In this document: positions 2,583 through 60,405 of the stretch, one piece after another | Position numbering within the stretch: position 1 is the stretch's first letter | How the letters are laid out: every line of letters begins with the position of its first letter | Assembly (NCBI GenBank): GCA_965287045.1 | Contig: OZ336882.1 | Location: 81,158,001-81,222,000 of the forward strand | Direction of reading: 5' to 3' | Origin: Carcharhinus amblyrhynchos | Taxonomy: Eukaryota | Length of the DNA: 64,000 nucleotides | Position numbers and translations under genes: made by a program | Notes under the pieces: model-generated | The model's input: the letters and a program-made list of their open reading frames with translations, nothing else | The model's database searches: none | Told to the model about the DNA's origin: nothing

Positions 2583-2652
2583 ATGGAATACTCAGTGATA
2601 TATCAGATAGAAAGCATCTACTACCCTCTTCTCGCAGCCATTGGCATTATTG
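2583..2652 (+). CDS. GPCR gene 1, coding exon 1 (MEYSVIYQIESIYYPLLAAIGII), GPR139/GPR142-like
   Basis: ATG at 2583, 70 nt, followed by donor G|gtaagg at 2653. Phase 1 joins exon 2 in frame (G+TT=V, then N1.50). The YYP-L-A-G pattern matches exon 1 of the other three paralogs. Confidence 0.9.
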
Positions 2653-3184
2653 GTAAGGCTTTGCATCCAGTCTGAATGTTGTTAACTAATGTTGATTTCT
2701 TATTTACGCTTGCTCCCTGCCTTGTACTTCAACATATTCCTGTTTTTTTTCTCTGAGTGATAAAGATGTAATACCGTGCTACCGTTTAAACCAGGAGTAA
2801 TGTTACTGTTGGCTGTAGGAGGATTATTTACAAGGCTTTTATTTTCTTCAGTGCTCAACAGAGTCAATTTTGTGAGAACCTTTCGTTACATTGTTTCTTA
2901 TCCGTTTTTACCAAAAGAGCAAATGCGAGAATAAGTATCTAAATATCGGCGGATGATTTAATTCCCCTGTCATATGGGCAGATATTTACGACCGTTGTTG
3001 CGAATGCGAATAAATGGCAAGTATTGTTTGCAAGGGACGACTGACACGAAACTACGCATGTTGCGCTATGTTTTGATGGTTCTCTCCTCACCATTTAACA
3101 CCACAGTAAACATGTATTTTTTTAAAAATAGAGGAAAGGCTTGTCTATAGTAAATTGCGTAAATAAGGGTGCTCAAGTATATAT

Positions 3185-3523
3185 AGAAACATAGAAGCAT
3201 AGAATCATATAATCCCTACAGTACAGAAGGAGGACATTCGGCCCATTGACGCTGCACCGACGGCAATCCCACCCTGGCCCTATTCTCGTAACCCCACATA
3301 TTTACTCTGCTAATCCTGTGAAACTAGAATCAATGTGGAATGGCTAATCAAATTGATTCGCATTCTTTGGTCTGCGGGAGGAAACTGGAGCACCCAGAGG
3401 AAACCCACGCAGACAAGGATAGAATGTGCAAACTCCACACAGGCAGTGACCCGGGGTTGGATTTCATTCCGGATCCCTGGCGCTGTGAGGCAGCAGTGTG
3501 AACCATCGTGCCACCGGGCTCCC
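3185..3523 (-). mobile_element. HE1-type tRNA-derived SINE in gene 1 intron
   Basis: (catagaa)n tail, core ggaggaaactggagcacccagaggaaacccacgcagaca, tRNA-like head at the right end. Confidence 0.85.
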
Positions 3524-4539
3524 CATACAGCGTATATTTTATGCGTTAACGGAAGAAAGATTCAGTGGGCATTATACAACAGGTTATAGTATATAAACAC
3601 TCAAGATAATAACTAATACCCACACGTCAACTAAAGGTAAGCCTGCAGTCAACTGCAATGCACTTTGAAAACGTTCTCCACATTTCAACACTGGAGAACG
3701 GATAATTGACATCACAAGTCTTATTTTCAACACCATTGATAGTCTCGCTGAATTATTACTTGAATTTCGCTCATTTGTCAACTTTTTCATGATGCAAGCT
3801 ATACTATTAAATGAGTCAACTGTACCTCAGCTAGACACACTACCTGTGTCAAAACTTTATATACTTAAATCTGACTACAGATTTCGGTCACAGAAGGAAG
3901 GACCCGCGGAATATTGCAGTGTGGAGGCAGGTTAGACAACATTTCGATTTCGACAAATTCAGCCCCTTCTCCTTTGCCAATTTGCTTTCGTATCTTATTC
4001 CAATATTTCATAGAAATAAACAGCTTTAGCCTGGATGCGGGGGCCGAAACCGACACCCAATTAATATTAGAAGCGTATATATTATATTGACATTTTAATA
4101 TTGATGTGGAAATCAGCTGATGCGTTTCGTAACGTACAACAGTGACAATGCTCCATTGGTGGTGAAAAATGTCGTCATGTCTTGTGGTCGTGAAAATGTT
4201 TATTTCGCTAAAAATGTTCAGGTTTCTATTTTACCAAAATTCACCAGCTTTAATTAAGTCTTGGTATTAATAGGTGGGATTTAGAAAATAAACTGGGTTC
4301 ACAAAGAACAATTATCGTTTTTGTTATATCTTAACTGAATAAAGCATTTTGAAAAAAGTATCCTTTTTCCTTTTCGATGTCGAGACATGCGCACCACAGC
4401 CAAGCTGATAATTAATGCGTTTTACCGTCGTTATTTAATTATCAGAGTAAATAAGATGAACCGACTGCTTTGTTGCTGTTTGTTGTCTGGGTACTTAACA
4501 GAATCGATTACTAGACAAGTTCCGATGCTAATTAAGAGT

Positions 4540-4897
4540 CGGCACACTGGCACAGTGTTGAACAGGGCTGTGTTGCAGCTTCAGAGATCTGGGTCCGATT
4601 CCCGGCTTGGGTCACTGTCTGTCTGAAATTTGCACATTGTGTCTGCGTGGGTTTCCACACATAGTCCAGAGATGTGCGGGTTAGGTTAATTGGTAATACT
4701 AAATTGCCCTTTGGTGTGCCTTAGGGTGCTGGTTCGAGGGATTAGCGGGGTAAAGTTGTGGAGTTGTGGGAATACGGCTCGGCGGGCCGGGGGTGGAGGT
4801 GGGGTTCGGTGGCGGAGGGGGATGTGAGGGGGAGACTGTTGGTGGTGCAGATTCGAAGGGCCGAATGGCTTCTTCTGCATTGTAGGGATTCTACAAG
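4540..4897 (+). mobile_element. HE1-type SINE with internal G-rich expansion
   Basis: Head ggcacagtg...gggtccgattcccggcttgggtcactgtctg; tail gggccgaatggcttcttctgcattgtagggattcta. Confidence 0.8.
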
Positions 4898-6959
4898 TCA
4901 CCCAACTAGCTTACCTTCTATTTTATAAAAGAAGGCTCGTGAATCTATCATGCAAAATTGGACACCTGAGTGCGTTGCCTTTTTACATGATAGCAACTGT
5001 TGATTCCATGAAATCATAAAGAAGAGAATGAAATACATCGTCGGATAGACATTAAAACATAGTTCCATGCTCCTGGTTTTTCTTGTCACCTGAACGTTTT
5101 CCTTTTCTAAGTGGAGATTCAATTCACTTTCAGAAAGTTACGGCAGAACCTGTTTCGTTCCCCAAATCATGCAAATGTTTGTTGCCATAACAAAGTGCGA
5201 TATAAATTGAAACAGTCACTTTTAATTTTTGTCGTTGTTCAGTGTCTGTCTGTTCTAATCAACAACATCATTTGTTTACTTACCCTCGAACCAGCCAAAT
5301 TAAATATCGAAGCATGTTGTGATTTTAAAGGGTTATTCCCACTTTAGCTTTTCCATCCATCATGAAGCAGCGCCAACATTTCCAGGCACGCAACAAAAAT
5401 TATGTCCATAAGTCCTGATGAAGCTCCAGTGCCCCTCATCTTCACCCTTTCCTTGAATGTCAATTCTGAAGCCATTTTCGGCATGTCAAACAGTCCCCCA
5501 GCTCCTCTCTAAACATTATTTCGAAAGGTTCCCTAACACATCCTTGTTTTTCTTTTCTGTCTCCATTTATGAAGCTTAAGTGCATTGTTTAGCGCATTCT
5601 TAACTAGAGCTCCCACATTCAGAAATATGGGTGGGTGCATCATATTATATTCTCAGTCTGTTTCACAAACGTACCAAAAATTACATAGTTTTTCAGAATG
5701 TATTTTCCAAGTGGAATCAGTTATTCTTGCATATTGAGATTCATGTGTCCTGCTTTTCCAAGTTTTCTCTCTCAGTTTGTGTCTTCTGTTTCTTTTGTCA
5801 TATTCCTCCAGCCTAGTTAAGATAATTCGCTGCCTGTGCCATATTTACACTTTGAAAGTATTCCCTGTATATCAGAGTCCAACTCAATTGTTTCTCCTGG
5901 CACGTTCTGATAGCCTGGGTGGCATAATGTTGTTCACCCTTGCAGTTAAAAAGCTCAGAATTTACTGCTATTGCAAACGATCATCAGTTTCCTTTCTGAG
6001 AGCAGGAATGAGTTTCGCTGACAAATCAACTGTGAGCGTATCATGAGCGCTCATAGTCCAAATTCCAGATTACCTTCCGCATTATAAATAATTAACTATG
6101 CCCTGTCCTTTAATAATAATGCCGAACATGAACCAATCTAATCCCAACGTATATTATCTTGTCCCTTTTAAATTTAATCCACTGACAATTGAAGAGGAAG
6201 GTTAATAGGTTAATGCAGTGTGGTGGGGGGCGGGGGGAGGGGGCGGGGCGGATCAGTACGTTTCAATTCTTTGCCGAAGAGCATAACTGAATGTAACAAA
6301 AGCCTATTGAAAAAGATTTTCGATTCATATTGGAGTCGAGACTCAGTGGGGGCGGGGCTGGGGTGGTGGAGGGGGGGGTGGTGGGGCGTTGGTGAGGGGC
6401 GTGGTGGGGGGGGCGTCAAAAGGCGAAGCCCACTTTCGGCCACGATTAGATCAGACAAGATTTTATTAACTGTCAGCGCAAGCAAACGGACCGAGCGCCA
6501 ATTGTTTCCCCACTTTCTTATTTTTCTCCATTCATCCGGTTCTGCTGGTTGTCCATTTACACTTGTCTATATAGTGAACTTACGCACATCATTTGCTTAA
6601 GACTGCCGGTTCTGGTGAAAGTGACCGTTTCCTCCTTCTGCGGACATACAGAACCAGAATTCTTATTTATGTCAAGCTATCATTCCTCAAGATTAGATCC
6701 GGTTCCATTTGACGCATGTCAGGGTTACTGCTGTTCTTTTCACACTTTGAGATTTAGAAGTATGACCACGACGTTGCCAAATATTCAGCAAAAACATAGT
6801 CAAACAAAATAACCCTTGCCATTACAGATCGTTGTGACTTTTTTTCGATTCACTATTAACAACGATTAATAGTGTTTTTTTCTTATGTTCAATTCATTGA
6901 AGTTTTGTACTCTTTGCTATTTTGTTTAATTAATATGACCGTGTGGCAAAAATCCATTT

Positions 6960-7800
6960 CAATTGCATTTTTGAAGTTTTCTGATGATATCACTGTAGTA
7001 GTCGACTCTCAATCAATGAGGTCACGCAGGATACGAAAAAAGATAGAGATTCTGCTCAAATGGTGCAATGACACAAATCTCTATGTCAGTAAAACGAAGG
7101 AGATAGCCATTGGCTTCAAGAAGCTCAGTGGGGGATCTGCATCTGCCTACATCGACAGTGATGAAGTGGAGATGGTTCAGAACTTCACGTTTCTTGGTGT
7201 CCAGATCACCAACAATCTGCTCTGGCCCCTGCAAGACGATGTTTTAGTTAAGAAAGCCCACCAACATTTCTACTTTCTCACAAGGCAAAGGAAATCGGTC
7301 CTGTCCACTTCCCAATATTTACAGATTCACCATAGAAAGCAGAGTCCCGAATGTCACATGGTGAGAACAGCTTTTATGGTTGCTGCTCTGATCGAGACCG
7401 CAAGGAACGACAGAGGGTTGCGAGCATAGCCCAGTCGATCAGGCAAACCAGCCTCAAATCCACTGACTTCGTTTACTCATTCTACTTCCTCTGGAAAGCA
7501 GTCAGCAAAATCAAGGACCTCGGACATTGCGGGAATACTACCTTCCACATTCTTCATTCGGGAAAATAACAAACACACATCTGAAAACACGTTCCAACCG
7601 ACTCAAGAACACTTTCTTTAGAGATTAAACAGCGGTATCATAAATTCAATTGATCTTCTCTTCACCGCACGTGCAACTGAAAAACAATATTCCACACCCT
7701 AACGTTTTGTTTGTCACTCCGTGCTTAATCTTGTCTATAAAATGCACAAGAAACAATTTTCACTCCATCCCAATGCATGTGACAATAAACCAAATCAAAT
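6960..7800 (+). mobile_element. Rex1/Babar-like LINE, RT C-terminal fragment
   Basis: ORF 6872..7429 contains KFSDDITVV, VSKTKEIAIGFKK, FTFLGVQITNNL and VKKAHQHFYFL; ends in caataaaccaaatcaaatc tail. Confidence 0.75.
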
Positions 7801-7944: not shown

Positions 7945-8870
7945 TTAACGCGGTGGCGATTGTGATCCTGAAACGAGGGAAATGTGGCCTCTCCAAATGT
8001 ATCACTCAGTACCTAATGGCAATGACTTCAGTAGATCTACTACTCGTCATCACCGATGTTATATTGAATCGACTTAATACTATGTATTTCCCTGTCAATT
8101 TTTTATCTATTACTCCAGTGTGTGCGCTGAAAGCAGCTTTATTTCTTTCAGCAACGAATTGTTCCGTTTGGTTCACAGTGGTTTTTACCTTTGATCGGTT
8201 TGTAGCCATTTCTTGCCAGACACTGAAACTACGATATTGTACCAAGAGAACTGCGGTTGTGGTTATCATAACAGTGACCATTATCAGCTGTGTGAGATGC
8301 ATTCCCTGGTGCCTTGCCTTTCGCCCTTCAATCATTATTGACAATGTACCATGGTTTTGCATTGAGAAAGATCTCTATCATACCTCAACATTTTATATAG
8401 TGTATGAGCGGATTGACATTGTACTAACACCATTGCTTCCATTTGCTCTGATTTTGGTTTTCAACACTCTGACTGCTAGGAATATTATAATTGTCACTAA
8501 GCTGCGGAGGAGCCTTAGGGAACAAAGTAAATCAGAGAATCATATTGACCCAGAAGTGGAGAGCCGAAGGAAATCCATTATATTACTTTTTGCTTTGTCT
8601 GCCAATTTTATACTATTGTGGATTCCATATATTGTGCACTTGTTAACCTGGAGAACTGTAAACTACAATTACACAGACAAAAGCTTTACCAATCCAGAAT
8701 ATGTCGCTCAGCAATGTGGATACATGTTGCAGCTTCTGAGTTCATGCACCAACACCTGCATTTATGCACTAACCCAGAGGAAATTCAGGGAGGAGTTAAA
8801 GAACGGGGTTAAATATCCATTTATTCTAATTTCAAAAATATTTGAACAAAGTAAAACAGAACTTCAATAA
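7945..8870 (+). CDS. GPCR gene 1, coding exon 2; spliced product 331 aa, class A GPR139/GPR142-like receptor
   Basis: Acceptor ttgttacag|TT at 7944/7945. Hydrophobic TM segments, MAMTSVD (TM2), C3.25, SVWFTV-FTFDRF (TM3), PWFC (ECL2), DPEVESRRKS, NTCIY (TM7), stop TAA. Confidence 0.92.
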
Positions 8871-14039: not shown

Positions 14040-14700
14040 GTTGCTTGCTTTAAGAAGCAACAGTTGCATAAGGCAGTATTTACAGTGAAGGCAGCACCTG
14101 TGGCGTGAGGCAGCACTTACAGCGAAAGCTTTATGGCATACCATTGACGCTATGCAGCAGCTGCAGCGTAACAAACTCATGTGGAGTAAGGAATGATCTG
14201 CGGTCCAACACTGTGTATACACTGCAATGCTAAACCTGTGGTGTAAGTAATTAGCTCCAGTGTAAAACGTTTCGTGTAATGCAAAATCTGTGGTTCAAGG
14301 TAATACCTGTGATGTATGCCAATACCCGCAACGTAAGTTAGAACGTTTGATGTCAGGCATAATTGTTTGTGGGCAGAGAATGTGGGGAATGGCTGCGCCT
14401 GTGCTGATGTCTCGCACCTCTGTTGTAGGGCAGAAATTTTGGTGTAAGACAACACATGCAATCTGTTGCAGTTTCTGCGTTTCAGGCGGGATCTGGTTTG
14501 ATTCATTGGCCCGAACAGGCGTTGGGGTGTGGTGAATGAGGGATTTTCAAAATACTTTATTGCAGTGTTAATGAAGGCCTTACTTGCAATTAATAAATAT
14601 ACTTTATCGGCAGTGTTAGCTGTCACCTGTGGTGCATGACACTGATTGTAGAGTAAAGAAATAGCTTCAGTGTCAAACAGCACCTTTGTATGACTCACCT
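14040..14700. repeat. Degenerate ~19-bp minisatellite (consensus ~ggcagtacctgtggtgtaa)
   Basis: Recurrent units such as aggcagcacctgtggcgtg, cctgtggtgtaag and tctgtggttcaaggtaatacctgtg. Confidence 0.7.
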
Positions 14701-14789
14701 CGAGAATTCACAGTGTTTTAGTGATGTCTTCGATGCTACTCTGTCTCTTCAATAGTTTCTTAATGAAAGAGCATCCCCCTGCCCTCTTT

Positions 14790-19080: not shown

Positions 19081-19310
19081 AACACTGATTGTCACTTTAT
19101 CAGTTACATAGCTGAGCCTCAGTTTGCCTTTGAATCTCGGATGTAAATACATTGCTTTAGCAGGGAATCGATCTGTTCCAATTGGAGAGCATTGGATATG
19201 AAATACAAGCTACTAAGCTTTCCGACTTTTCTTTTCTCAGAACAATATATCTTGGCAGTTCGAACTGAAAGAGATGTATTCTATGACGAATCGAGGGTTA
19301 TAATTATGTT

Positions 19311-20242
19311 CTAACTGGGGCCGATAGCTTTGGGTTGATTTTTCATATTTTTAACCAATGAAGAAATAAATATCCAAGGAGATTTCACCAAGTGAATCAT
19401 TTCCTCCCTGAATTTCGTTTGTGTCGCAGCATAAATGCACGTATTTGCACAAAACTTCAGCTGAGTAAGCATATATCCTGTTTCATTGGCAATATAAGCA
19501 GGATCTGTATAGACAGGTCGGATATTTATGACCAGGGCGTCAGTCCACTGACTCACCACCGATGTCAGACTCAGCAATATAAAATTGGCGGACACAGCGA
19601 AGAGTAAAATAATGGATTTCCTTCGGTTTTCCATCTCTGGATCACGCTGATTCCCAATCCTGAGAGCACAGAGTCTCCTGCGGGCAATATTTGTCACTAC
19701 AATGCGTCTGACTGTTAAACTATTAAACAGCAATATTAAAGAAAAGGGGATCAATGACAATAAAATACTTTGAAATCTGAAGTATGCTCCACCTGCTGGT
19801 GATTTTAAAAAAGCCGCACTGGGTATGAAACCCCATCGAACATTATTAATTATTTGTTTATGTTGAAATGCAAACCAAAAAGGAATGTTCTCTAAACACA
19901 GAAATATTGAAACTATGGTTACGACGATAGATGCAGCTTTTACTGTGCAATATCTGGTTTTCAGTTCCGGGCTACAGATAGCTACAAACCGGTCAAATGT
20001 AAATCCAACCGGAAACCACGCAGACAAACCAACGTTGACACAAGTCAAGTACAACATAAGCTTACAAATGACAGTGTAGGAGAGAAATGAATATGGAAAG
20101 CGTTGCTGGACAATTTGACGTACAATTCGATAGACGAGTGTAGTCAGTAGATCCACTGATGCCATGGCCACCATATAAGTAGAGATACTTTTCGAAAGGT
20201 GGCAGTTTCCTCTGCAGAGGGTCACTATTGTTAGCAGGTTCA
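19311..20242 (-). CDS. GPCR gene 2, coding exon 2; spliced product 333 aa, GPR139/GPR142-like
   Basis: Acceptor ctttcttacag|TG; MVAMASVD, FTFDRF, DPEMENRRKS and NTCIY motifs; open to TAG. Confidence 0.92.
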
Positions 20243-22000: not shown

Positions 22001-22129
22001 AATGCATTAATATCAGGAAGAACAAGTTTTCTAATAGTGATTTCTGGGGAATCCCCAAGCGAAACTTTATTGAATTCAAATGAAATATCTTTGGGTTGGA
22101 CGGTGTGGGGAGTGGGTGGCGGCGTTTGG

Positions 22130-26030: not shown

Positions 26031-26100
26031 CTGGTGTACCAATGGCTACGAGCACGGGGTAGTAAATATCCTCGACCTGTAGAATTATTGGCCGTTCCAT
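26031..26100 (-). CDS. GPCR gene 2, coding exon 1 (MERPIILQVEDIYYPVLVAIGTP)
   Basis: acaATG, 70 nt like the paralogs, followed by CAG|gcaagt (GC donor). In frame with exon 2 (G+TG=V, then N). Confidence 0.88.
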
Positions 26101-40611: not shown

Positions 40612-41543
40612 CTACTGCCTGAACATGAGGGCTAGATTTAATTTTACGTATTTTCGCAACACCACAATTATTGTCCAAGGAGATTTCGCGACCTTCTTTA
40701 GCTCTTCCCTGAATTTAGCTTGTGTAGCTGCATAAATGCACGTGTTTGTGCATGAACTTAAATGCATGAGCAGTGTTCCCGTTTCGGTGGCGATATATGC
40801 AGCAGACGTGTAATCGGGCTGGAGATGAACGAGCATCCGACTGACTAAATAACTAATGACTCTTGTCGCCCACAACAATAGAAAGCTACTAGAAATAGCG
40901 AACAATAAAATAATGGACTTCCTTCGGTTCTGTATCTCTGGATCATTCTGATTGTCACTGTTTTGACCCCGGAGGCCCGCACGGGCTTTGCTGGACAACA
41001 AAATCCTTCTGATTGTCAAAAGATTCAATAGTAATATCAAAAAGAAGGGAATCCAGTTCAATAAGATACTTTGTAACAAGACGACTGCATCGCCAATTTG
41101 AGACGTATAAAAATCCTCGCTGGGGCGGACACCCCATTGAACACCATTCATTGTGCTTTTATGTTCAAATGCAAACCAAACATACAAGTTCTGTAAATAG
41201 ATAAGGACTGAGGCTGTTGTGAAAACTGCAGTCGCTGTTCTCGCTGTACAATAGATTGTTTTAAACTTCTGACTACATATAGCAACATAGCGGTCAACCG
41301 TGAATGAGACTGTAAACCATACTGACATATATAGGTTATTACAAAGCATATATATCATTAATTTACGAACAATAGTGTAGGAGAGGAATGAATTTGGAAA
41401 ACGTTTTATCAGAACGTAATACAGAATGACATTGATGAGCATCACCAACAAATCTGCTGTTGCCATGGCCACCATGTAGATCGAGACACATCTGGAAAGG
41501 CCGCAATTTCCTTTGGCGAGGATCACGATGGTCAGGAAATTCG
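40612..41543 (-). CDS. GPCR gene 3, coding exon 2; spliced product 333 aa, GPR139/GPR142-like
   Basis: Acceptor cattcttacag|CG; MVAMATAD, SVWFTVSFTVDRY, DPEIQNRRKS and SSCTNTCIY motifs; stop TAG. Confidence 0.92.
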
Positions 41544-43905: not shown

Positions 43906-43975
43906 CAGGAGCACCAAAAGCTGCCAGCACAGGGTAGAAAAGTTCCTTGATCTCTATAATTAATGGGCGGGCCAT
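43906..43975 (-). CDS. GPCR gene 3, coding exon 1 (MARPLIIEIKELFYPVLAAFGAP)
   Basis: gcaATGG, 70 nt, donor CTG|gtaagt; in frame with exon 2 (G+CG=A, then N). Confidence 0.92.
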
Positions 43976-49330: not shown

Positions 49331-51300
49331 GATTCGTTACATGTGCTCATTTCAGAGGACTGAGGAATTTATCAAAGCACCTCGATGACAACTCACTCTG
49401 CGCCAAATTCAAGACATATATTGTGTAAATTTCCCGTCATTGAGGACTGCTGCAGAAAAAAAAAACTGACTTTAGCTATATATTTATATCACCGCTGAGA
49501 ACATTAAGGTGTTCGTTATCTCTGGGAAACCTAGCAAAAATATTATTATCATGGAGCAGAGAAAGTAATTTTCAAGGGATCAACATTGGCATTTCAAACA
49601 GGCTTGAAATGAACATTTCCCATCGACATTAGAGCGAATTGACAGTTTGCGCATTCTCCAGTTTATAGACACCGCATCTGACGTCGAACAACACATGAGT
49701 GTTACTTGAGTTCGATGTCACATCTGAACGTAAAAGGAAAAAAGTGGCTATGACATAGATTATGTTAAAACAACAATTATACTATCATAAAGGATTCAAG
49801 CTGTGCTGCAGATATGACAGAATTGAGACCTCAGATTGATTTTGTGGCAGTGCTGCAGTGCCAATGCTGATTCCAGTCGACGAACCGTGAATCCGAATCC
49901 ACAATTTGAGAATGGTCACCGTGCTGCAGCCCTGTGTCATCGCGTTGATTACAATGTGTGTGCTTTGAATATGCTTTGGGCTCCTTCCTCAGGCGGAAAG
50001 AATAAACGATGCTGATCAGAGCTCAGCATCACGACTCAATACAACTCCTTAATCCAAACACTTTAAATAGAATGAAACATTCAGATTGTATTCGAGAGTG
50101 AAAATGCAAGTACGAGTGCACCAGTCCGCTTCGTGAGCATTGATATGATTTTTTGTTCAATTGTCCAACCGTTTCTTGCTTTGAAATTCACACAAATGGT
50201 TGCAAGGCATCTATTAAAGACATACCTCACGGTTATTATTCTGGGTTACGTAACTAGTGCATGTTAAGATCTTTTTGAATATTATGAACAGTTCATTGCT
50301 ACACGTCTCCCTCATTCATCCTTCGCCGACATCCATCTAGTTGCGTATAACATAATTGTATGATTCTCAAAATTCACTCCATATAATACCAATTTGCATT
50401 TTCTTTTCCAATATCGATTACATGTCTCAGTATATTATGTTTCCACTGCCAAACAGATCAAATTGCTGCTAGAAAGATACTTTTATTTTTTGAATAATAT
50501 AATTGTAATTCACCCAATTGTTGTGTTATACATATTGGTCTTCTCCTTCATCGTTACTGTCAATTAAAATTGTGATTTGCAAATCATTTATTTTCACAGT
50601 TATCAAACGATTCTGTTTCTCTTTCTCTTGATGTGTGAGCATCAAATTCTATGTCTTGAAATAAATTGCGTATTAATCCTGAAACTGACCCCGATGCATG
50701 GTCCGCTCTGGACCCTGTTGATTTAATATGACTATTCTTCACTATTTAATCGGAAAAGGTGAGCGATGAAAAATGCCACAAACTGACAAAAAACAATAGT
50801 CATAATACTGACAAATTAGGGTCGTTCTTTTTTGCAGTTGGCTTAGTCGTGTTGTAATCCAATAGTAGCAATGCAGGCACCGAACGTATATTCTGGAGTT
50901 CTGGGTGTGAATGCCACCACGTTGCAGAATTACAAACCAATATTCTATTTTTTTTTCAAAAAAACAGTGATCACCATGAATGGATTGTCATAAATACCTG
51001 TCCGCTTCTCTGATGCAAAAAGGGAAAGAAACATCCTCACCCGCTGTCGTCTGCATGCCAGTCCAGACATGCAGCAACATATTTGACTCTTAACTGCTCT
51101 CTGAAGAACGATTTGCCATTACTAGAAAATTATGATTTCTACCAGCAGCTTCCCAATCCCATAACTGAATAAAAACGGATGCTCACCTTCAAATCAGCCC
51201 CCAAGTCCTCCTCAATTACATCATGTCCGTCTTTCCAATGGCGTCATGCCCCGTCCACCATCATCCGTTTTTATGCATTGCACTCTCCATAACCAGTTTA

Positions 51301-52050
51301 AGAACATAAGAACATAAGAACATAAGAAATAGGAGCAGGAGTAGGCCATCTAGCCCTTCGAGCCTGCCCCGCCATTCAATAAGATCATGGCTGATTTGTC
51401 GTGGCTCAGTTCCACTTTCCCGCCCTCTCCCCATAACCCTCAATCCCTTCTCCTATCAAAAACCCATCAACCCGCTTCTTAAAAATATTTAGCGAGGCAG
51501 CCTCCACCACTTCAACGGGCAGAGAATTCCAGAGATTCACCACCCTTTGAGTGAAGAAGTTCCTCCTCAACTCCGTTCTAAACCGCCTCCCCTTTATCTT
51601 GAGGCTGTGCCCCCTAGTCCTACTGTCTTTTTTGAGCGGGAAGAGTCTCTCCACCTCTATCCTATCCATCCCATTCATCATCTTATACGTCTCAATGAGA
51701 TCTCCCCTCATTCTTCTAAACTCTAACGAATACAAGCCTAGTTTATTCAGCCTCTCCTCATAGCTCAATCCCCTCAACTCCGGTATCAGCCTAGTAAACC
51801 TCCTCTGCACTCCCTCCAGGGCCAAAATATCCTTGCGCAGGTGCGGCGCCCAAAACTGCACACAGTACTCCAGCTGCGGCCTCACCAATGCCCTATACAG
51901 CTGCAGCAAGACCTCCCTACTTTTATATTCAATCCCCCTCGCTATGAAGGCCAGCATCCCATTCGCCTTCCTGACCACCTGCTGCACCTGCAAGCTGGGT
52001 TTTTGCGACTCATGCACAAGGACCCCGAGGTCCCTCTGCACCGTCGCCTG
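51301..52050 (-). mobile_element. Young 5'-truncated CR1 insertion specific to copy B
   Basis: Clean (agaacata)3 tail; uninterrupted ORF2 C-terminus ending ...GYGERAGKWN*; absent at the homologous site 17750/17751. Confidence 0.95.
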
Positions 52051-53074
52051 CATTTCATTTGGAAATTTTGGTCTTGCTTTGCGATCATTCTTCTGAGCCT
52101 TTGACCATGCCTGCAGCATGTTTGTTACTTCATGATCACAATTATGATCTGGCGGTGCCCTGAGGACATGCATTAAATTTGATAGAACAAATGTTCCTTT
52201 TCTGTAGGTGTGGCGGGGTGGTGGGTTGGGTGATTGATGGTTGGAACAGTTTGACACCCTGGGTTATTCGGGTGTTTAGAATCCTGTTAAAATGATCAGA
52301 CACATTTACGCCTTTATTCAATAGAAGCAAGGAAACGCGAACCAACAAGACACATTTATCAATTAATTGCCTTAACTGCATTTCGCTGGCTTTCACTAGT
52401 TTGATTTCATATCAGGTTGATATTTATCTAGTCGTGCCCACATGTTTTATATGAAAGAAAACGAAATACATAGACACAGGCAGCACCTATTAGTTGAGGA
52501 ACCGAAAACTGAGAAGAGTTAAAATAATGAATATAAAAAAACGATTGAGAGTGACCGAACGCCTCTAAGAGGAGAACTGGGGGACAGTGGAATTTGCTGA
52601 TGCATTTTTCTGAAATATTAAACATAAACATGTGGGTGAATAAAAATATAGGTCGATGATGTTGATACACGGAGGGAAAAAATATTGGAACTATTTGTTT
52701 GGCTGGCGGGTAAAATCCAGCAATATTTCGCTCGTCGGAATGATCTGTTCCTCTGTTACATAATTCCGAAATTTTCAAGGCCGGCTGAGAGCGAAGTTAA
52801 GGGCTCGAAAAATTAATTTGACCTCATAAAGATGAATCAAATTATTGTTGCCTTAATCATCAGACACCATTCAAGAGACAGTACTACCTTCTATTAGCAT
52901 CAGAAACAAGAGAGAACAAAACCTGATAGGGGAAACCGGGATTTGTATTATTACAAACAGATAGCGGATAAAGCATAACATGTACACAATTCCAGTGTTT
53001 CTAATCTCAATTAATTTATCAGTTCATTCAACAGAATATATTACTTCAGTCGATGAAGTGTGAGGCAGTTTGCG

Positions 53075-53398
53075 GTGAGACGGTGGCACAGTGGTTATGA
53101 TCGCTGCGTTAAAGCATCAGGGACGTGGGTTCGATTCCCGGTTTGAGTCACTATCATGTGCGGATTTTGCACGCTCACTCCGTGTTTCCGAGGGTTTCCT
53201 CAGGGTGTTCCTGTTTCCTTCCAAATTCCAAAGATGTGCAGGCTAGGCGGATTGGTGATGCTGCATTTCCACTTAGTGTCAGAGGACTTGCTAGGGTATA
53301 TACATGGGAATAAGGGGACAGGACATGGGTGGGATTGCGGTCGGTGCAGGCTCGATGAAAACAATGACCTCCTTCTGCATTGTAGGTTTCTATGAGAA
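53075..53398 (+). mobile_element. HE1-type SINE (paralog of 18763..19080)
   Basis: cggtggcacagtggtta...gggttcgattcccgg; tail ctccttctgcattgtaggtttctatga. Confidence 0.85.
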
Positions 53399-53592
53399 AC
53401 ACTGATTCCCACTTTATCAGTTACATATCTCAGCCTCAGTTTGCCTTTGAATCTCGAATGTAAATACATTGTTTTAGCAGGGAATCGATCTGTTCCAATT
53501 GGAGAGCATTGGAAATGAAATATAAGCTACTAAGCTTTCTGACTTTACTTTTGTCAGAACAATATATCTTTGCAGTTCCAACTGAAAGAGAT

Positions 53593-54560
53593 CTATTCTA
53601 TGACGAATGAAGGGCTATAATTATGTTCTAACTGGGACCGATAGCTTTGGGTTGATTTTTTCATATTTTTAACCAATGAGGAAATAAATATCCAAGGAGA
53701 TTTCACCAAGTGAATCATTTCCTCCCTGAATTTCGTTTGTGTCGCTGCATAAATGCACGTATTTGCACAAGACTTCAGCTGAGTAAGCATATATCCTGTT
53801 TCATTGGCAATATAAACAGGATCTGTATAGACAGGTCGGATATTTACGACCAGGGCGTCAGTCCACTGACTCACCGCCGATGTCAGACTCAGCAATATAA
53901 AATTGGCGGACACAGTGAAGAGTAAAATAATGGATTTCCTTCGGTTTTCCATCTCTGGATCACGCTGATTCCCAATCCTGGGAGCACAGAGTCTCCTGCG
54001 GGCAATATTTGTCACTACAATGCGTCTGACTGTTAAACTATTAAACAGCAATATTAAAGAAAAGGGGATCAATGACAACAAAATACTTTGAAATCTGAAG
54101 TATGCTCCACCTGCTGGTGATTTAAAAAAAGCCGCACTGGGAATGTATCCCCATCGAACATTATTAATTATTTGTTTATGTTCAAATGCAAACCAAAAAG
54201 GAATGTTCTCTAAACACAGAAATATTGAAACTATGGCTACGACGATAGATGCAGCTTTCACTGTGCAATATCTGGTTTTCAGTTCCGGGCTACATATAGC
54301 TACAAACCTGTCAAATGTGAATCCAACTGTAAACCACACAGACAAACCAACGTTGACACAAGTCAAGTACAACATGAGCTTACAAATGACAGTGTAGGAG
54401 AGAAATGAATATGGAAAGCGTTTCTGGACAATTTGATGCACAATTCTATAGACGAGTGTAGTCAGTAGATCCACTGACGCCATGGCCACCATGTAGATAG
54501 AGATACTTTTCGATAGGTGGCAATTTCCTCTGCTGGCGGTCACTATTGTTAGCAGGTTCA
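53593..54560 (-). CDS. GPCR gene 4, coding exon 2; spliced product 345 aa, recent paralog of gene 2
   Basis: Acceptor tcttcttacag|TG; SVWFTVGFTFDRF, DPEMENRRKS and NTCIY motifs; C-tail extended relative to gene 2. Confidence 0.92.
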
Positions 54561-56434
54561 CTGTAAGAAGACGAGAGAGGAGTCAAATAAGGGGTACAAA
54601 TCTCACCATACATTGTGGGACCACGCAGATATATAGTTGCTAATAAGTTGAAGCGCGTTTTCTTTTTTAAATATTATTGGACACAGAACACTTGTAATGT
54701 GACTTCATTCAGAAGGTAGAAGATCGGCTTCAAGAAGGGCAACGGTAAATAAGAACAGCCTGCTTGTTGTTGAAACCCAAACAACGGTGATTCAAGGCGA
54801 GGTGGAAGGGGCTGATGAAGGGGGCAGTGACTTCACACGATGATGCTAAACCGAAAGCTTTGGACAGACATCATTCTTCTCCATTGACTTCTTTCCTAAG
54901 GTTGACACATTTATAGTGCAACAAGAAATAAAGAACGGCATTGCTTCGATCGCGATGATATTCAGGAAAGCTGAAAGATGAGCAGCAAGACTTGGCACTT
55001 GCACTTAAATAGCTCCTTTAGCTTTATAAATCATACGCAGTAGTTTCATAAAACTGGTGTAAATCGTTAAAATCGGGTCATGAACAGAGACATTATTAAT
55101 TTAACTTAAAACGTGAAAAAGCAGGCCAATATTAACGACCATCTTGAAGGAGAGAATATAGGTAAAGAGGCGGCTGACAGATTTTAATTTCTCCAGTTTC
55201 TCCTCCATGCACTTTTTTTTTGGATGACGTCCACGGGGAGTACTTTGCAGATGAGAGCACAAAGTGGGCAGGGACAGGTCCTGAATCCGAGGTCTGCACA
55301 AGAGTTAAAGGTTCAGAAGTGGGAAATGGAACAATTGCAATTGAAATTATGGCTCTACTTAAATAACGAAGAAAGATATTGAATCATAAAAAAGTTCGGT
55401 CTCGTTGAAAGAGCCCATGCGTTCATCCTGTCTGTACATTGTTACCGAATGAGCGATTAACCCAGTGCCATTTTCTACATTGCATACGTTTTTCTGCATT
55501 TCCTTACTTTCAGATAACATTCTAATTCCATTTTTATAGTTTCAGTTGAACTTGCCTCCACCATAATCCCTGACACTGCATTAAAAAAACCTAAACACGC
55601 ACGACATTTAGAACGAAATTGATCATTATATCAATATCGCTTAATTTGCGATATAAATCTAATCCATGCCCTCGGATCATCGATTCTGTCAAAAGGGGGA
55701 ACTGTTTCTCAACTATACTCAACATTTTGAATTCTTCAGTCAAGTTTCCACACTTTTTTTATTTTTGTGAGATAAAAAATCCTTATTTCTTCAATCTAGA
55801 TTCACAATTGAAGTCCCTCTACGCTGCAGCAACTCTTGTAATGTTGGCTGCATTATTTCTAATGTCTGCACATACTTTCTAAAGTGTGTCACCTGGATCT
55901 CGCCGGTATATTCTATTTGTGGTTGAAATAATGACTTATATAAATTCCACACAAACTCCTTGTTCTTGTACCCCTACCCTGATGAATAGCATCCCGAATA
56001 TTGTATTTTTTATGCACATTTGCCTCAGCAAACTCCACCACCTTCTATAATTTATACAGAGATGCACCTCGGTCCAATTTCTCCTCAATTTTTTTACTCG
56101 ACATCTTGTCTTGTCTCTCCATGTGCTTCCAACCAAAAAGAAATTATTCCCATTACTCTGCATTGAAATTAATTTACCAGCTGTCTACTCTTTGCAAGAA
56201 CACGTTAGCGTTCCGTCCAATTTCGACACGACCCCTTCATTAGCTCACAATGCTTGCAAGCTTTGTATAATCTGCCAAGTTCGCAATTTTGTACCGAAAA
56301 TTCGCAATGTATTAATATCAGGAAAAACAAGTTTTCTAATAGTGATTTCTGGGGAATCCCCAAACGAAACTTTATTCAATTCAAATGAAATATCTTTGGG
56401 TTGGGCGGTGTGGGGAGTGGGTGGCGGCGTTTGG

Positions 56435-56770
56435 GGTGTTACAGTGGCACAGTGTTTCGCGTTGCTGCCTCACAACGTTAGTGGCCAGGGGTCAATTATT
56501 GCCTTCTGTGTCTATGTGGAGTTTGCACAATCTCCCTATGCGTGAATAGGTTCCCTCCGGGGGCTCCGGTTTCCTGCCACAGTCCAAAGATGTACACGTT
56601 AGATTTATGAGTTTCTTCTCGCTGCCCCAATATATGTAAAGGTTTTGGCGGGGTAATTACGAGCAGTTTCGGGCGTAGGGCCTGAATAATGTGCCCTAAC
56701 AAAGAGTTGGAAACAAACCCGACAGGACGAAAGGCCTAATTGTGCATTGTACAATTATATATCGCTTTGA
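56435..56770 (+). mobile_element. HE1-type SINE (paralog of 22130..22465)
   Basis: Near-identical to the copy A element. Confidence 0.8.
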
Positions 56771-56954
56771 AATTCTGCAAGCGCCTATTTCTTATTTCCT
56801 AATCCTTGTTTGCCACTAGTATGTTGCACGGTATTGTACTAACCACTTTTACAATTCAATTCACACAGTATCAACAGAATTGTCCACACACATGTCGTAT
56901 GTAAACCCCTCAAAACATCTCCAACGTATTAGTTGAACTTGATTCTTTCCCCTG

Positions 56955-58270
56955 AGAAATACTGGTAGTTATAAGCCAGTTAGTCTTACTTCGGTGGTCG
57001 GTAAGTTCATAGAAAGGGTCCTGAGGGAAACGATTTATGGCCATTTGGAAAGATGCAGCTTAATCCAGAATAGTCAGCACGTTTCGGGAGGAGTAAGCCC
57101 TGCCTCGCAAATTTGATTGATTTATTTGAGGAGGTAATTAAATGTGCATTTGAAGATAGAGCAGTTGATGTCGTATACATGGAGTTTAGTCAGGCGTTTG
57201 ATAATTTTCCCCAATGGTAGGCTCATGAAGAAAGTAAGGAGGTGTGGGATAGAATGAAATTTGGCTGATTGGATAAGTAACTGGTTGTCTCATAGAAGAC
57301 AAAGGATGTGGTGGAGGGAACATTTTCAGACGAGAGGCCAGTTACCAGCGGTGTACCACAGGGATCAGTGCTGGGTCCCCTGCTTTTTGTGATTTTTATC
57401 AATGACTTGGAAGAGGGGGCTTATTGTGGGTTAGTAAATTTGCTGATGGCCCCAAAAGTGATGGAGTAGTGGATGAGGCGGAGGGCTCTTGTAGGCTGCA
57501 AAGAGGCATTGATAAGATGCAGAGCTTGGCCAAAAAGTGGCAGGTGGAACTTAACCCTGATAAGTGTGAGGTGATTCATTTTGTTTGGACAAACTTGAAT
57601 GCGGATTACAGGGTCAACGGCAGGGTTCTGAGGAATGTGGATGCACACAGAGATCTTGGGGTTCATACCCACAGACCTCTGAAGGTTGCCACTGAAGTGG
57701 ATAGAACGTGAAGAAGGCTTATAGTGTGTCAGCGTTTATTAACAGGGGGCTTGAGTTTAAGAGTCGTGGGGTTATGCTGCAACTATACAGGGCCTTGGTG
57801 AGACCACATTTGGAATATTGTGCGCAGTTCTGGTCACCTCACTATAAGAAGGATATGGAAGCATTGGAGAGAGGAGGTTAAGCGGGATACTGCCAGGTTT
57901 GGAGGATATGTCTTATGAGGAAATGTTGAGGGAGCTGGGGCTTTACGCTTTAGAGCGGCGGAGGATGAGAGGCGACTTAATGGATGTTTTCACGTTGATG
58001 AGGGGGACAGATAGAGTGGACGTGCAGAGACCATTTCCTTGTCTGGATGTAACTGTTACTAGGGGGCTTAACTGTAATGTTCATGGTGGGGAGAGATAGG
58101 AAGAACTTCCGAGGTAGATTCTTTACTCAGAGAGTGGTTGGGGTTATTGGATAGGCACATGGAACACACCAGAATGATAGGGAATGGAGTAGCTTGATCT
58201 TGGGTTCAGACACAGCTTGGCACAACAGCGAGGGCCGAAAGACCTGCACCGTGCTGTTCTATGTTCTATC
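56955..58270 (+). mobile_element. CR1 fragment (paralog of 22650..23965)
   Basis: ORFs 57424 and 57899 match 23119 and 23594. Confidence 0.9.
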
Positions 58271-58944
58271 CATGAGAATGAAACGTGTGTATGCAGTTCC
58301 AGTCAGATACCAAGTCGTGCGGAATGTTGAAGGAGACAAGCTTGGTAAAATATTCCCTTTCGAATAGTAAAAACGAATATTTTTCTCTTTGAAAAAATTC
58401 CTTTTGGCAATGTTCCTGGAGTCAAACTTTATTGGAAAGTTTCAAGTGTGGAGATTGAAATGTTTTACCCTGATTGGGAAGGCGACAATGTGTTCACAGA
58501 ATTTACAGAGGTAAAGGGACTTGGAAATGTGGCAGTGGTTTGAATGGATCATGGGATAAAAGACATTTCTTATCTTTGAGGGAGATGCCAATGAAGTGAA
58601 TACTTTCAACGGAAGAATGGTGACCATTAATAGTATCAACCAACAAAGGGACAACAGAGGATGTTGCATGGTCTGAAATGTGGACTGAATGATCCAGGAA
58701 GCTAGAACGTGGGTCTCATGATGAGTTTAAAGAAGGAATCTGAATGCATACGTGTCTATGCTGTGCTGGGCGGGAAGAACATTCCTCCTGGAACATGGAC
58801 AGCATGATCCGCAGGGCCAAGATTCTATGTAATCACGGGAGGTTAATGGAACAAATTATACGATTTTACATTTGAGTCTCTTCATTTACTTGAATGCCAG
58901 CGACAAAATTAGAGACAAATAGCATTCAACAAAATTCCAACAAA

Positions 58945-59740
58945 TTAACTGGAAATTTAAATTTAATCCGGGCAAGCTTGAGATAATACGTTTTGGAAAA
59001 TCCAATGCATGTTAGGATTCTACATTAAATGGTAGAACCCTAACCGGTATGGACAGCCGGAGAGGCCTGGAAGTGTAAGTCCACCGATCTCTAAACCGGC
59101 AATGCAGTTGGATAAGGTCCTCAAGAAGGCAAATGGCATGTTTGCCTTCATCGATCGCGGCATTCAGTAAAAGAATACACATGTCATGCTGCAGTTGTAC
59201 AAAGCAATAGTTCGGCCTCATTTAGAACACTGTCTACAATTCTGGTCGCCACACTACCAGAAGGATGTGGATGCTTTGAAGAAGGTACAAAAGAGGTTTG
59301 CGAGGATGATGCCTGGCCTGGGGAGTATTATCTGTGAAGAGTGGTTGGATAAACACAGTTTGTTCTCACTGGAAAGATGGAGGTTGAGAGGTGACCTGAT
59401 AGAGGTTTACAAGATTATGAGTGGCATGGACAGAGTGGAGAGTTCGACGCTCTTTTCTGGGGCAGAAAAGTCAAGAGTTCGGAGATATAGGTTTCAGGTG
59501 CGTGGAGAAATTTTCAGAGGAGCTGCGTGAGGCAATCTATTGACAGGGAGTGTACAGAATGCCCGGAATGCGCTGCGCAGGAAGCAGCATTTAAGGGACG
59601 ACGAGACTAATACATAAATAGGATATGAACGGAATGATTCAGTGCATATGGTTTTATTTTTTGCAAGAATCATGATCAGCACAGCCTGTGTCTGTGCCTT
59701 TCTTTGTTCCTTGTTCGTTGTTCTACATCCATTCAAATAA
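58945..59740 (+). mobile_element. CR1 3' fragment (paralog of 24640..25435)
   Basis: ORF 59186..59530 LQLYKAIVRPHLEHC...RLRGDLIEVYKIM. Confidence 0.85.
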
Positions 59741-60335
59741 AACCTCCGCTTTAGGTAATTGAATATAATTTGAAACACCTCTCTCTTTCCCTTTTATAAT
59801 GTCCGAGAGGGAGAAGAGGGAAAAGAGCGTGAGCTGAATGTGAACTGGTGGAACCGGAATTGGAATGGGAACAAACAAAATGTGTTTCAAAAAAAGTATA
59901 TCTCAAAGCCTCATAACCTTCGTCAGAATAATTATCAAGGGGCTGTCGTCGGAGGTCAAAGATATCAATGGGTAAATACAACGGTTGTCATCATCTACTC
60001 ATCAATTGAGAATGGGTAACGATCCTTGTCATGTCAACGCCGCCCCAGTGCCTTGAAATAACAAATCAAAACACATTCCTTTGTGATTCATTATACTATT
60101 AGAGTGGTGGGGATTCATTCCCGCCATCTCTTATTATAGGTAGCGAAGTTGAGGTCCCTCATTCTGCCGAGCAGCAGAGCGTCTCAGAGGATGTGTGGGC
60201 TCCGAAACGCATGAATGTTCATTATGCTAACACACTAGAAATAAAACGACTCTGCAAGCACATTCTCTCTTCGATACAGAACCATTAACAGTGACATATT
60301 CAGCACCTATTAAGCAGCAGGACATACTGACTTGC

Positions 60336-60405
60336 CTGGTGTACCAATGGCTACGAGCACGGGGTAGTAAATATCCTCGACCTGTAGAATTATTGGCCGT
60401 TCCAT
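60336..60405 (-). CDS. GPCR gene 4, coding exon 1 (MERPIILQVEDIYYPVLVAIGTP)
   Basis: Identical to 26031..26100, including the CAG|gcaagt donor. Confidence 0.88.

What the first reader, a model, noticed from the sequence alone, without database searches (positions are those of the whole stretch)
2583..60405. Tandem cluster of four divergent orphan GPR139/GPR142-like receptors: candidate shark-expanded chemosensory family
Seen: four intact receptors with identical gene architecture (70-nt exon 1, phase-1 intron, TTACAG acceptor). All have a very short N-terminus with no N-glycosylation sequon and share intracellular motifs (G.C.LS, DRF/Y-VAI, DPE...RRKSIILLF, NTCIY, Q.KFREE), while extracellular loops and upper TM3/TM5-7 are highly variable. 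Established: mammalian GPR139 and GPR142 are single-copy receptors activated by L-Trp/L-Phe; cartilaginous fish have few OR, TAAR and V1R genes; clustered birth-and-death evolution with conserved signalling faces is typical of chemoreceptor families. Inference: this may be a lineage-expanded receptor repertoire for amino acids or peptides (olfactory, gustatory, gut or immune sensing) rather than GPR139 orthologs.
Basis: partly seen in the sequence, partly recalled or inferred. Interest (0 to 1): 0.8.

Follow-up and report, generated by a model that had tools for sequence, protein, structure and literature searches.

The report
Large undescribed shark receptor gene family
These four genes belong to a large family of cell-surface receptors that sharks and rays have multiplied from a gene that frogs and salamanders keep as one conserved copy; their signal-binding pockets vary while their signalling side stays fixed, so they may be an overlooked set of chemical sensors, though where they are used is still unknown.

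Summary
Four intact two-exon class A GPCR genes are confirmed, but they are three types: R2 and R4 are 93% identical copies from a 12-kb segmental duplication (GC-AG introns), and R1 lies on the opposite strand. They are not GPR139/GPR142 orthologues: R1 is 22-23% identical to human GPR139 and the Trp/Phe pocket is not kept. They belong to a very large chondrichthyan family (at least 62 distinct proteins in horn shark, 51 in sevengill shark; 21 species seen), auto-annotated 'probable GPR139'. The family is sister (100/100) to a conserved gene seen once per genus in amphibians and in sturgeon, so the expansion, not the lineage, is shark-specific. Putative pocket positions evolve fast in shark paralogues (relative rate 1.29) and are nearly frozen in the amphibian orthologues (0.30), while the G-protein face is conserved (0.48). 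That fits a ligand-diversified repertoire, but most young clusters show no pocket enrichment and R2/R4 are under purifying selection. No expression or ligand data were available, so chemosensation is a hypothesis. Ten literature searches found no description of the family; one shark genome paper speaks of a paucity of GPCRs.

The parts
2583..2652 (+). R1 coding exon 1 (70 nt, N-terminus and first half of TM1), GT donor
7945..8870 (+). R1 exon 2 (rest of the 7TM receptor to stop); keeps both cysteines of the TM3-ECL2 bridge and W6.48/P6.50; sister to a white shark protein (68%)
26031..26100 (-). R2 coding exon 1 (70 nt), GC donor
19311..20242 (-). R2 exon 2; lacks the ECL2 cysteine and W6.48; carries T-to-P in TM3 at a site 97% T in the family
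43906..43975 (-). R3 coding exon 1 (70 nt), GT donor
40612..41543 (-). R3 exon 2; lacks both bridge cysteines, keeps W6.48 and R6.51; best relative a horn shark protein (67%)
60336..60405 (-). R4 coding exon 1 (70 nt, identical to R2's), GC donor
53593..54560 (-). R4 exon 2; co-orthologue with R2 of a white shark protein (79%); one extra A after helix 8 lengthens the tail by 12 aa
17754..29696 (.). Copy A of the segmental duplication (holds R2 with intron and flanks)
   Evidence: (94.7% nt)
52052..64000 (.). Copy B of the segmental duplication (holds R4); runs to the window edge; left end abuts a repeat fragment at 51314-52051 that matches the LINE at 30328-31877

Best explanation
The window is part of a gene cluster of a very large chondrichthyan family of orphan class A GPCRs that arose from one jawed-vertebrate gene of the GPR139/GPR142 - W/Y/Famide-receptor supergroup. 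Amphibians and sturgeon keep that gene as a single conserved copy with a fixed pocket; cartilaginous fish multiplied it by local and segmental duplication. Shown: the genes, the family size as a lower bound, the sister relation, ongoing duplication, a conserved G-protein face and a variable pocket. Inferred: the family works as a repertoire of receptors that share one G-protein pathway but bind many different small ligands (by ancestry most likely short peptides or aromatic amino-acid-like molecules) that come from outside the body, i.e. a chemosensory repertoire of sensory or epithelial cells (olfactory microvillous neurons, oral, gill, gut or skin chemosensory cells). The tissue, the G protein and the ligands are all unshown.
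For: Size: 2330 proteins at E<=1e-10 among 3899 candidates for R1 (organisms seen only for the best 120: 118 named chondrichthyan, 2 unnamed); 565 at E<=1e-30 among 2020 for R3 (120 of the 120 listed chondrichthyan). Union of named clusters: 248 in 21 species, horn shark 62, sevengill shark 51, sawshark 38 (lower bounds). Clustering: 17 of the 62 horn shark clusters share one 74.9-Mb scaffold, from both the R1 list (4) and the R3 list (13), as in the window; one 90% cluster holds 12 sevengill proteins, another 10 horn shark proteins. Ancestry: shark family plus amphibian/sturgeon gene 100/100, shark family alone 90/89, chimaera copy nested inside; the alternative grouping of sharks with the coelacanth/teleost clade is rejected, p-AU 0.0001. 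Rate inversion: 36 putative pocket positions have relative rate 1.29 in 258 shark rows and 0.30 in 22 amphibian rows; 28 of 36 are invariant in amphibians, 3 of 36 are >=90% conserved in sharks; 29 G-protein-face positions 0.48 in sharks (pocket vs face p=5e-7). D3.49 253, R3.50 255, N5.58 255, N7.49 255, Y7.53 256 of 256. R2/R4 dN/dS 0.29, p=0.0004, so these copies are under selection. Precedent: Atlas neighbours include nematode Srw clusters and FMRFamide-receptor-like clusters; srw is a birth-and-death family related to myosuppressin/FMRFamide receptors and proposed to sense environmental peptides (PMC2576165, passages); that receptor group is sister to GPR139/142 (PMC8557429, passages).
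Against: No expression or ligand data. Pocket enrichment of substitutions was not significant in 5 of 6 sets of shark paralogues tested (only 13 sawshark paralogues, 29 of 36 vs 91 of 165, p=0.005, uncorrected), and five batoid proteins that look orthologous do not conserve the pocket (16 of 36 variable, OR 1.11): relaxed constraint explains this as well as ligand diversification. No shared olfactory-type promoter motif pair upstream of the three gene types (weak test with recalled motifs). In catshark the 50 most specific genes of the brain-plus-olfactory library held no GPCR (PMC11979771, passage; this also misses the V2Rs, so it is weak). V2Rs are robustly expressed in the catshark nose and are held to dominate it (PMC10116579). 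Even V2Rs and ORs of sharks are often expressed in non-olfactory organs. The pocket and G-protein position lists are recalled, and the TM4 anchor is assumed.
Confidence: 0.45

Rival explanations
1. An immune or barrier-surveillance repertoire: receptors on leukocytes or mast-like cells that detect microbial, parasite or damage peptides, working like the formyl-peptide or MRGPR expansions of mammals.
For: The same signature (clusters, birth-and-death, variable pocket, fixed G-protein face) is expected. The whale shark paper notes that cartilaginous fish lack MAS1 and its relatives (PMC8455134, passage), so another family could fill that role (inference). No olfactory promoter signature.
Against: No expression data; nothing in the window links the cluster to immune genes. 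Relatives in the supergroup are neural or chemosensory.
Confidence: 0.2
2. Receptors for endogenous or conspecific signals (a diversified peptide family, reproductive or pheromonal cues) in brain, gonad or ducts; the repertoire co-evolves with a shark ligand family.
For: The single amphibian orthologue has a frozen pocket (28 of 36 positions invariant), as expected for one endogenous ligand; protostome relatives bind amidated neuropeptides and human GPR139 binds aromatic amino acids and peptides; a snail expansion of FMRFamide-like receptors was linked by its authors to reproduction (PMC11589774, passage).
Against: Neuropeptide receptors are normally stable 1:1 orthologues, unlike this family (PMC2576165); no matching ligand expansion is known to me (recalled, not searched).
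Confidence: 0.15
3. Mostly non-adaptive expansion: LINE-rich shark genomes duplicate the locus often, copies keep folding and coupling but the pocket drifts after loss of the ancestral ligand (for example constitutively active or dosage-selected receptors).
For: LINE fragments lie between the genes and at one duplication edge; pocket enrichment is absent in most young clusters and in batoid orthologue-like proteins; loss of W6.48, of bridge cysteines and a TM3 proline in R2 could be decay.
Against: dN/dS 0.29 between R2 and R4; 4 of 4 genes intact and no pseudogene fragment in 64 kb; the W6.48 and cysteine losses are shared with white, whale and zebra shark relatives, so they are old; pocket sites are faster, not merely as fast as, other TM sites (p=0.002); subfamilies are kept across sharks, rays and chimaera.
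Confidence: 0.15
4. They are simply GPR139/GPR142 co-orthologues sensing L-Trp/L-Phe, as the automatic annotation implies.
For: Human GPR139 is the best solved-structure match of the family profile (73.4 bits vs 47.8 for the next); most relatives are named 'probable GPR139'; GPR139 also has two exons (PMC7318219).
Against: 22-23% identity against 70% for human vs zebrafish GPR139; R1 alone did not reach E 0.001 on GPR139; amphioxus, coelacanth, teleost and amphibian orphans all score higher on the same profile (122-218 bits) than human GPR139 (73.4); pocket residues F3x33, H5x43, N7x38 are present in 0 of 4 window proteins, R6x51 in 1, W6x48 in 2.
Confidence: 0.03

Closest known systems
Human GPR139 / GPR142
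   Same: Best solved-structure match of the family profile; shared TM3 motif before DRY, N at 5.58, no proline in NPxxY; two exons.
   Different: 22-23% identity; Trp/Phe pocket not kept; family mostly keeps the TM3-ECL2 cysteines (232 of 256) that GPR139 lacks; has a DPE...RRKS insert at ICL3/TM6 absent from GPR139; dozens of copies rather than one.
Unnamed single-copy receptor of amphibians and sturgeon (e.g. Xenopus tropicalis XP_031757816.1, Pleurodeles XP_069092602.1, Acipenser RXM35349.1)
   Same: Sister group, 100/100; shares the DPE...RR motif (18 of 22), short N-terminus and helix-8 motif.
   Different: One cluster per genus, 66-74% identical across amphibians, frozen pocket, S at 1.50 and N at 2.50; only 26-32% identical to the window proteins.
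GPR210A / GPR210B orphans of coelacanth, gar and teleosts (Rinne et al. 2019, PMC6504862)
   Same: Non-mammalian GPR139/142-related orphans; my clades B and C (coelacanth, teleosts, bichirs) probably correspond to them, by taxon range only (not verified by accession).
   Different: Clades B and C fall outside the shark plus amphibian clade and lack the DPE...RR motif (0 of 8 outgroup rows); that survey's main text does not mention sharks.
Nematode Srw chemoreceptors and molluscan FMRFamide-like receptor expansions
   Same: Same peptide-receptor supergroup, clustered birth-and-death expansion.
   Different: Independent invertebrate expansions; the window proteins match only Pfam 7tm_1 at E<=0.001; function of those families is itself largely inferred.
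Vertebrate olfactory receptor families OR, TAAR, V1R/ORA, V2R
   Same: Clustered, expanded, variable pocket, short N-terminus (class A families; recalled).
   Different: No OR, V1R or class C Pfam match; different ancestry; expression in sensory neurons unshown.

Membership tests
Class A (rhodopsin-like) GPCR | 7tm_1 domain and seven-helix fold | tested here: met
   Pfam 55-63 bits, cutoff 30.5, 4 of 4; model of R1 exon 2 pLDDT 84.3 with TM2-TM7 and helix 8; Foldseek top hits listed are all class A GPCRs
Class A (rhodopsin-like) GPCR | N1.50, D2.50, D/E-R-Y/F, P5.50, Y7.53 | tested here: met
   4 of 4 window proteins; NPxxY is N-T-C-I-Y, W4.50 absent, 5.58 is N
GPR139/GPR142 orthologues | High sequence conservation across vertebrates (70% human-zebrafish, PMC7318219) | tested here: not met
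   22-23% identity of R1 to human GPR139; no phmmer hit at E<=0.001 for R1
GPR139/GPR142 orthologues | Trp/Phe pocket F3x33, H5x43, W6x48, R6x51, N7x38 (PMC5430874) | tested here: not met
   0, 0, 2, 1 and 0 of 4 window proteins; family F 16, H 64, W 248, N 7 of 256 (positions mapped by me)
GPR139/GPR142 orthologues | No TM3-ECL2 disulfide cysteines | tested here: inconclusive
   R3 lacks both, R2/R4 one, R1 none; 232 of 256 family members keep both
GPR139/GPR142 orthologues | Groups with GPR139 or GPR142 in a tree; conserved synteny and intron position | not testable with these tools
   No true GPR139/GPR142 sequence was returned as a usable protein; only profile scores are available; no flanking genes in the window
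GPR139-related supergroup (GPR139/142, GPR210, MIP/FMRFamide/Srw) | GPR139 is the nearest characterised vertebrate receptor; invertebrate neighbours are FMRFamide/Srw-type | tested here: met
GPR210A/B | Falls inside the coelacanth/gar/teleost clades | tested here: not met
   Separate clade, p-AU 0.0001 against sharks plus clade B; identity of clades B/C with GPR210 is inferred
OR / TAAR / V1R / V2R | Family-specific profile match | tested here: not met
   Only 7tm_1 at E<=0.001; no aminergic receptor among the 60 profile hits listed
Chemoreceptor repertoire (functional class) | Large, clustered, birth-and-death family | tested here: met
Chemoreceptor repertoire (functional class) | Variable pocket with conserved G-protein face | tested here: met
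   at family level; among young paralogue sets only 1 of 6 significant
Chemoreceptor repertoire (functional class) | Positive selection on pocket codons | tested here: inconclusive
   Only the window's coding DNA was at hand: R2/R4 dN/dS 0.29, 3 of 17 differences at pocket sites
Chemoreceptor repertoire (functional class) | Sparse expression in sensory cells; activation by external ligands | not testable with these tools
   Catshark 31-tissue expression table exists (PMC11979771, dataset S9) but its supplement could not be read

The most novel reading that the evidence does not exclude
Cartilaginous fish have an unrecognised fifth family of olfactory or epithelial chemoreceptors, with dozens to hundreds of genes per genome, built from a GPR139-related orphan that bony vertebrates keep as one gene or have lost. 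It would be a vertebrate parallel of the nematode Srw expansion from the same peptide-receptor supergroup and would overturn the view that sharks smell with a few dozen V2Rs.
Probability: 0.3. Interest if true: 0.9.

Novelty: new variant of a known kind. Interest (0 to 1): 0.68.

Why it matters
Papers read here describe sharks as having few GPCRs and a small olfactory repertoire dominated by about 34 V2Rs (PMC8455134, PMC6368271, PMC10116579, PMC11979771). A family with at least 50-60 distinct proteins in some sharks, hidden under the automatic label 'probable GPR139', is outside those surveys. Whatever its tissue, it is a large undescribed receptor repertoire of jawed vertebrates, and the question of where it acts can be answered at once from existing catshark RNA-seq. 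The single amphibian orthologue gives an experimentally easy ancestor state (Xenopus) for finding the original ligand.

Tried and rejected
Looked for further genes or pseudogene fragments in the window by tblastn (13 queries) and a six-frame profile scan: none above the shuffled range. Rfam: 0 matches. Other long frames: 3 of 8 tested are reverse-transcriptase fragments, 5 have no Pfam match. Foldseek did not single out GPR139 (ranks 41 and 50, though with the highest identity among the rows listed); the fold is generic class A. Promoter scan with recalled motifs: TATA-like boxes at -43 (R1) and -83 (R2/R4), no shared O/E plus homeodomain pair; noncoding similarity between R1, R3 and R4 regions was limited to repeats. 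R2/R4 as uncollapsed alleles: thought unlikely (5% divergence with indels over 12 kb) but not excluded without reads. The four window genes as one clade from local duplication: rejected, p-AU 1.6e-41; R1 and R2-R4 belong to old separate subfamilies. W6.48 and cysteine losses as pseudogene decay: rejected, shared with other sharks. Pocket-enrichment test in young paralogue sets: mostly negative. Literature: ten searches found no paper on the family; a GPR142-plus-shark search was not run, subscription journals are not covered, and Hara et al. 2018 was not held. Whale shark supplements: 14 of 24 files searched, no GPR139. A tree with true GPR139/142 could not be built.
Full report
OBSERVATION. 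Six-frame translation shows four long GPCR frames. Each is preceded by a TTACAG acceptor and has an upstream 70-nt coding exon that gives an open spliced frame of 331, 333, 333 and 345 aa: R1 (+) 2583-2652/7945-8870; R2 (-) 26100-26031/20242-19311; R3 (-) 43975-43906/41543-40612; R4 (-) 60405-60336/54560-53593. All four match Pfam 7tm_1 and nothing else at E<=0.001. A family profile scores the exon-2 frames at 419-455 bits and the exon-1 frames at 16.7-19.0 bits, against 4.2-9.1 for the best frame in each of 20 shuffled windows; the profile contains the four proteins, so this shows mainly that no fifth gene or remnant is present. The listed motifs and the short N-terminus without a sequon hold in 4 of 4. 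Splicing itself is inferred from sequence and from full-length relatives that begin at the same position; no transcript was seen.

CORRECTIONS. R2 and R4 are 92.8% identical and sit in a duplicated block, 17754-29696 versus 52052-64000, 94.7% identical and running to the window edge; the other pairs are 41-51% identical. So there are three receptor types. R2 and R4 use a GC donor, the only G[TC][AG]A donor-like site within exon 1 plus 61 nt of intron. R1 faces the other way. Between R2 and R4 there are 18 synonymous and 18 non-synonymous differences over 323 codons, dN/dS 0.29 (Fisher p=0.0004), so the pair is under purifying selection. R4 has one more A in a run after helix 8; the white shark orthologue ends like R2, so R4 carries the change, real or a homopolymer error.

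FAMILY SIZE. R1 finds 2330 proteins at E<=1e-10 among 3899 candidates; of the 120 listed, 118 are named chondrichthyan proteins and 2 are unnamed. R3 finds 565 at E<=1e-30 among 2020; all 120 listed are chondrichthyan. The organisms of the unlisted hits were not seen, so 2330 is not a shark count. The union of named 90%-identity clusters is 248 in 21 species of sharks, rays, skates and a chimaera: horn shark 62, sevengill shark 51, sawshark 38, small-spotted catshark 12 (lower bounds from truncated lists, typed from the tables). Clusters hide further copies: 12 sevengill proteins in one, 10 horn shark proteins in another, four consecutive catshark accessions on one chromosome in a third. Taking longest contig as a proxy for scaffold, horn shark members lie on 22 scaffolds, 17 on one that holds hits from both the R1 and the R3 list. 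The nearest named relatives of R1 (68%) and R2/R4 (79%) are white shark proteins, so the window is most likely from a shark.

ANCESTRY. A profile of 57 members searched against 1.84 billion representatives gave 140 hits at E<=1e-30. Naming the lower-scoring full-length hits revealed bony-vertebrate and amphioxus relatives. One, a salamander protein, carries the DPE...RR motif; searching with it gave 25 hits among 1675 candidates: 20 amphibian clusters, each led by a different genus, at 66-74% identity to the query, one sturgeon cluster (46%) and 4 chondrichthyan proteins, with no teleost, coelacanth or amniote hit (a word-based search, so absence is soft). In a 59-row tree rooted on amphioxus (42 shark-family rows chosen for spread), the shark family and this amphibian/sturgeon gene form a clade at 100/100; the shark family alone has 90/89 (94% of bootstrap trees), its 40-row core 100/98, and the chimaera copy is nested inside (a 105-row quick tree agrees). 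Grouping sharks with the coelacanth/teleost clade instead is rejected (p-AU 0.0001), as is monophyly of the four window genes. The two outer clades probably match GPR210A/B of Rinne et al. (PMC6504862, passages), by taxon range only. So one jawed-vertebrate gene stayed single in amphibians and sturgeon and was multiplied in cartilaginous fish, starting probably before the chimaera split and still going on.

RELATION TO GPR139. Human GPR139 is the best solved-structure match of the family profile (73.4 bits, E 1.6e-19; next 47.8) and of the coelacanth and salamander relatives, so the supergroup assignment is right. Orthology is not: R1 alone misses it at E<=0.001, the structural alignment gives 22-23% identity against 70% for human versus zebrafish GPR139 (PMC7318219, passage), and amphioxus and bony-fish orphans outscore it on the same profile. 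Of the residues that form the Trp/Phe site (PMC5430874, passages), F3x33, H5x43 and N7x38 are in 0 of 4 window proteins, R6x51 in 1 and W6x48 in 2; the amphibian orthologues keep F, W and N and have K at 6.51 in 22 of 22. I could not place true GPR139/142 in the tree.

ANATOMY OF VARIATION. With helix limits from the AlphaFold model of R1 (pLDDT 84.3) and recalled lists of pocket and G-protein-contact positions, site rates were estimated for 258 shark rows (254 of 256 named proteins, 2 dropped for gaps, plus the four window proteins) and 22 amphibian rows, each normalised to its own mean. Pocket: 1.29 in sharks, 0.30 in amphibians; G-protein face 0.48 and 0.73; other TM sites 0.96 and 1.10. 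Outer TM halves run at 1.31 versus 0.64 for inner halves in sharks, and the reverse (0.67 versus 1.06) in amphibians. 28 of 36 pocket positions are invariant in amphibians; 3 of 36 reach 90% conservation in sharks. Against over-reading: among six sets of shark paralogues only the 13 sawshark proteins show significant pocket enrichment (p=0.005, uncorrected), and five orthologue-like batoid proteins do not conserve the pocket, so relaxation after loss of the ancestral ligand is not excluded. The short N-terminus is ancestral: a sequon lies in the first 14 residues in 3 of 163 clean full-length shark proteins, and amphibian, coelacanth and amphioxus relatives start at the same place. The window's R2-R4 branch is unusual: 232 of 256 members keep both TM3-ECL2 cysteines, R3 has lost both and R2/R4 one, and R2/R4 have S for W6.48 (W in 248 of 256); these changes are shared with white, whale or zebra shark relatives.

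MECHANISM. Shown: intact receptors under selection, a conserved intracellular face, a diversified pocket, clustered birth-and-death evolution. Inferred: one shared G-protein pathway reading many ligands. By ancestry the ligands are most likely peptides or aromatic amino-acid-like molecules (PMC8557429, passages). The same supergroup produced the nematode srw expansion, proposed to sense environmental peptides (PMC2576165, passages), and Atlas neighbours of R3 and of the salamander protein include Srw and FMRFamide-receptor-like clusters. I give 0.45 to an external-chemosensory role in sensory or epithelial cells, 0.2 to immune surveillance, 0.15 to endogenous or reproductive signals, 0.15 to mostly non-adaptive expansion, 0.03 to plain GPR139 orthology. 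No expression data could be read: the catshark 31-tissue table exists but its supplement was too large and may bear directly on this claim.

LITERATURE. Ten searches of PMC open-licence papers and bioRxiv listed no paper on this family. Seen: passages of PMC10620051, PMC10115646, PMC8514136, PMC11589774, PMC11682238 and PMC8455134 ('relative paucity' of GPCRs in cartilaginous fish; 14 of 24 supplements searched without GPR139); passages and section 13 of PMC11979771 and PMC10116579; the abstract of PMC6368271. The genes are, however, present in public annotations under the automatic name 'probable GPR139' and several wrong names, so the sequences are not new; subscription journals were not searched and a description under another name is possible.

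VERDICT. It works like a birth-and-death receptor repertoire; it is not GPR139, GPR142, OR, TAAR or V1R. New variant of a known kind; interest 0.68, rising to about 0.9 if olfactory or epithelial expression is shown.

Noticed in passing
window 26031/26030 and 60336/60335 (minus strand): R2 and R4 introns start with GC (CAG|GCAAGT), a GC-AG intron; gene finders may miss exon 1, and the white shark orthologue P0392 is indeed annotated without it (287 aa, starts in TM2).
   Followed up: partly
window 17754-29696 vs 52052-64000: Divergence along the duplicated block is patchy (about 2% at 22-26 kb, 8-9% at 17.7-19 kb and 21 kb), suggesting gene conversion or a mosaic history; the block runs to the window edge and its left end in copy B abuts a LINE-derived fragment.
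   Followed up: partly
window about 53630-53640 (R4 exon 2, after helix 8): One extra A in a run shifts the R4 tail by 12 aa relative to R2 and the white shark orthologue; real change or homopolymer error.
   Followed up: partly
window 30328-31923, 34765-36319, 51314-52051, 14811-15552, 6860-7429: LINE retrotransposon fragments (RVT_1 matches at 31096-31923, 35058-35765, weak at 6860-7426); two 84%-identical copies lie in inverted orientation between R2 and R3.
   Followed up: partly
P0216, P0275-P0293, P0294 (amphibian and sturgeon orthologues): An unnamed conserved receptor with S at 1.50 (20 of 22) and N at 2.50 (22 of 22) in place of the canonical N and D, and a frozen pocket; apparently absent from teleosts and amniotes in the one search run. 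An orphan worth study in its own right.
   Followed up: partly
P0168, P0163, P0322, P0344, P0365, P0380, P0391, P0395: Family members carry misleading automatic names (vasopressin V2, capa, allatostatin-A, 5-HT4, prolactin-releasing peptide, GPR182, FMRFamide, GPR15 receptor-like), which would hide the family's size in name-based counts.
   Followed up: no
window 2540-2546 (+), and 83 nt upstream of the R2 and R4 start codons (-): TATA-like boxes close to the start codons, consistent with exon 1 being the first exon; none found for R3.
   Followed up: no
window 38175-40300 and 14177-14707: Degenerate low-complexity repeats with long open frames and no Pfam match; 38175-38561 resembles 50598-50996 (67%).
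   Followed up: no
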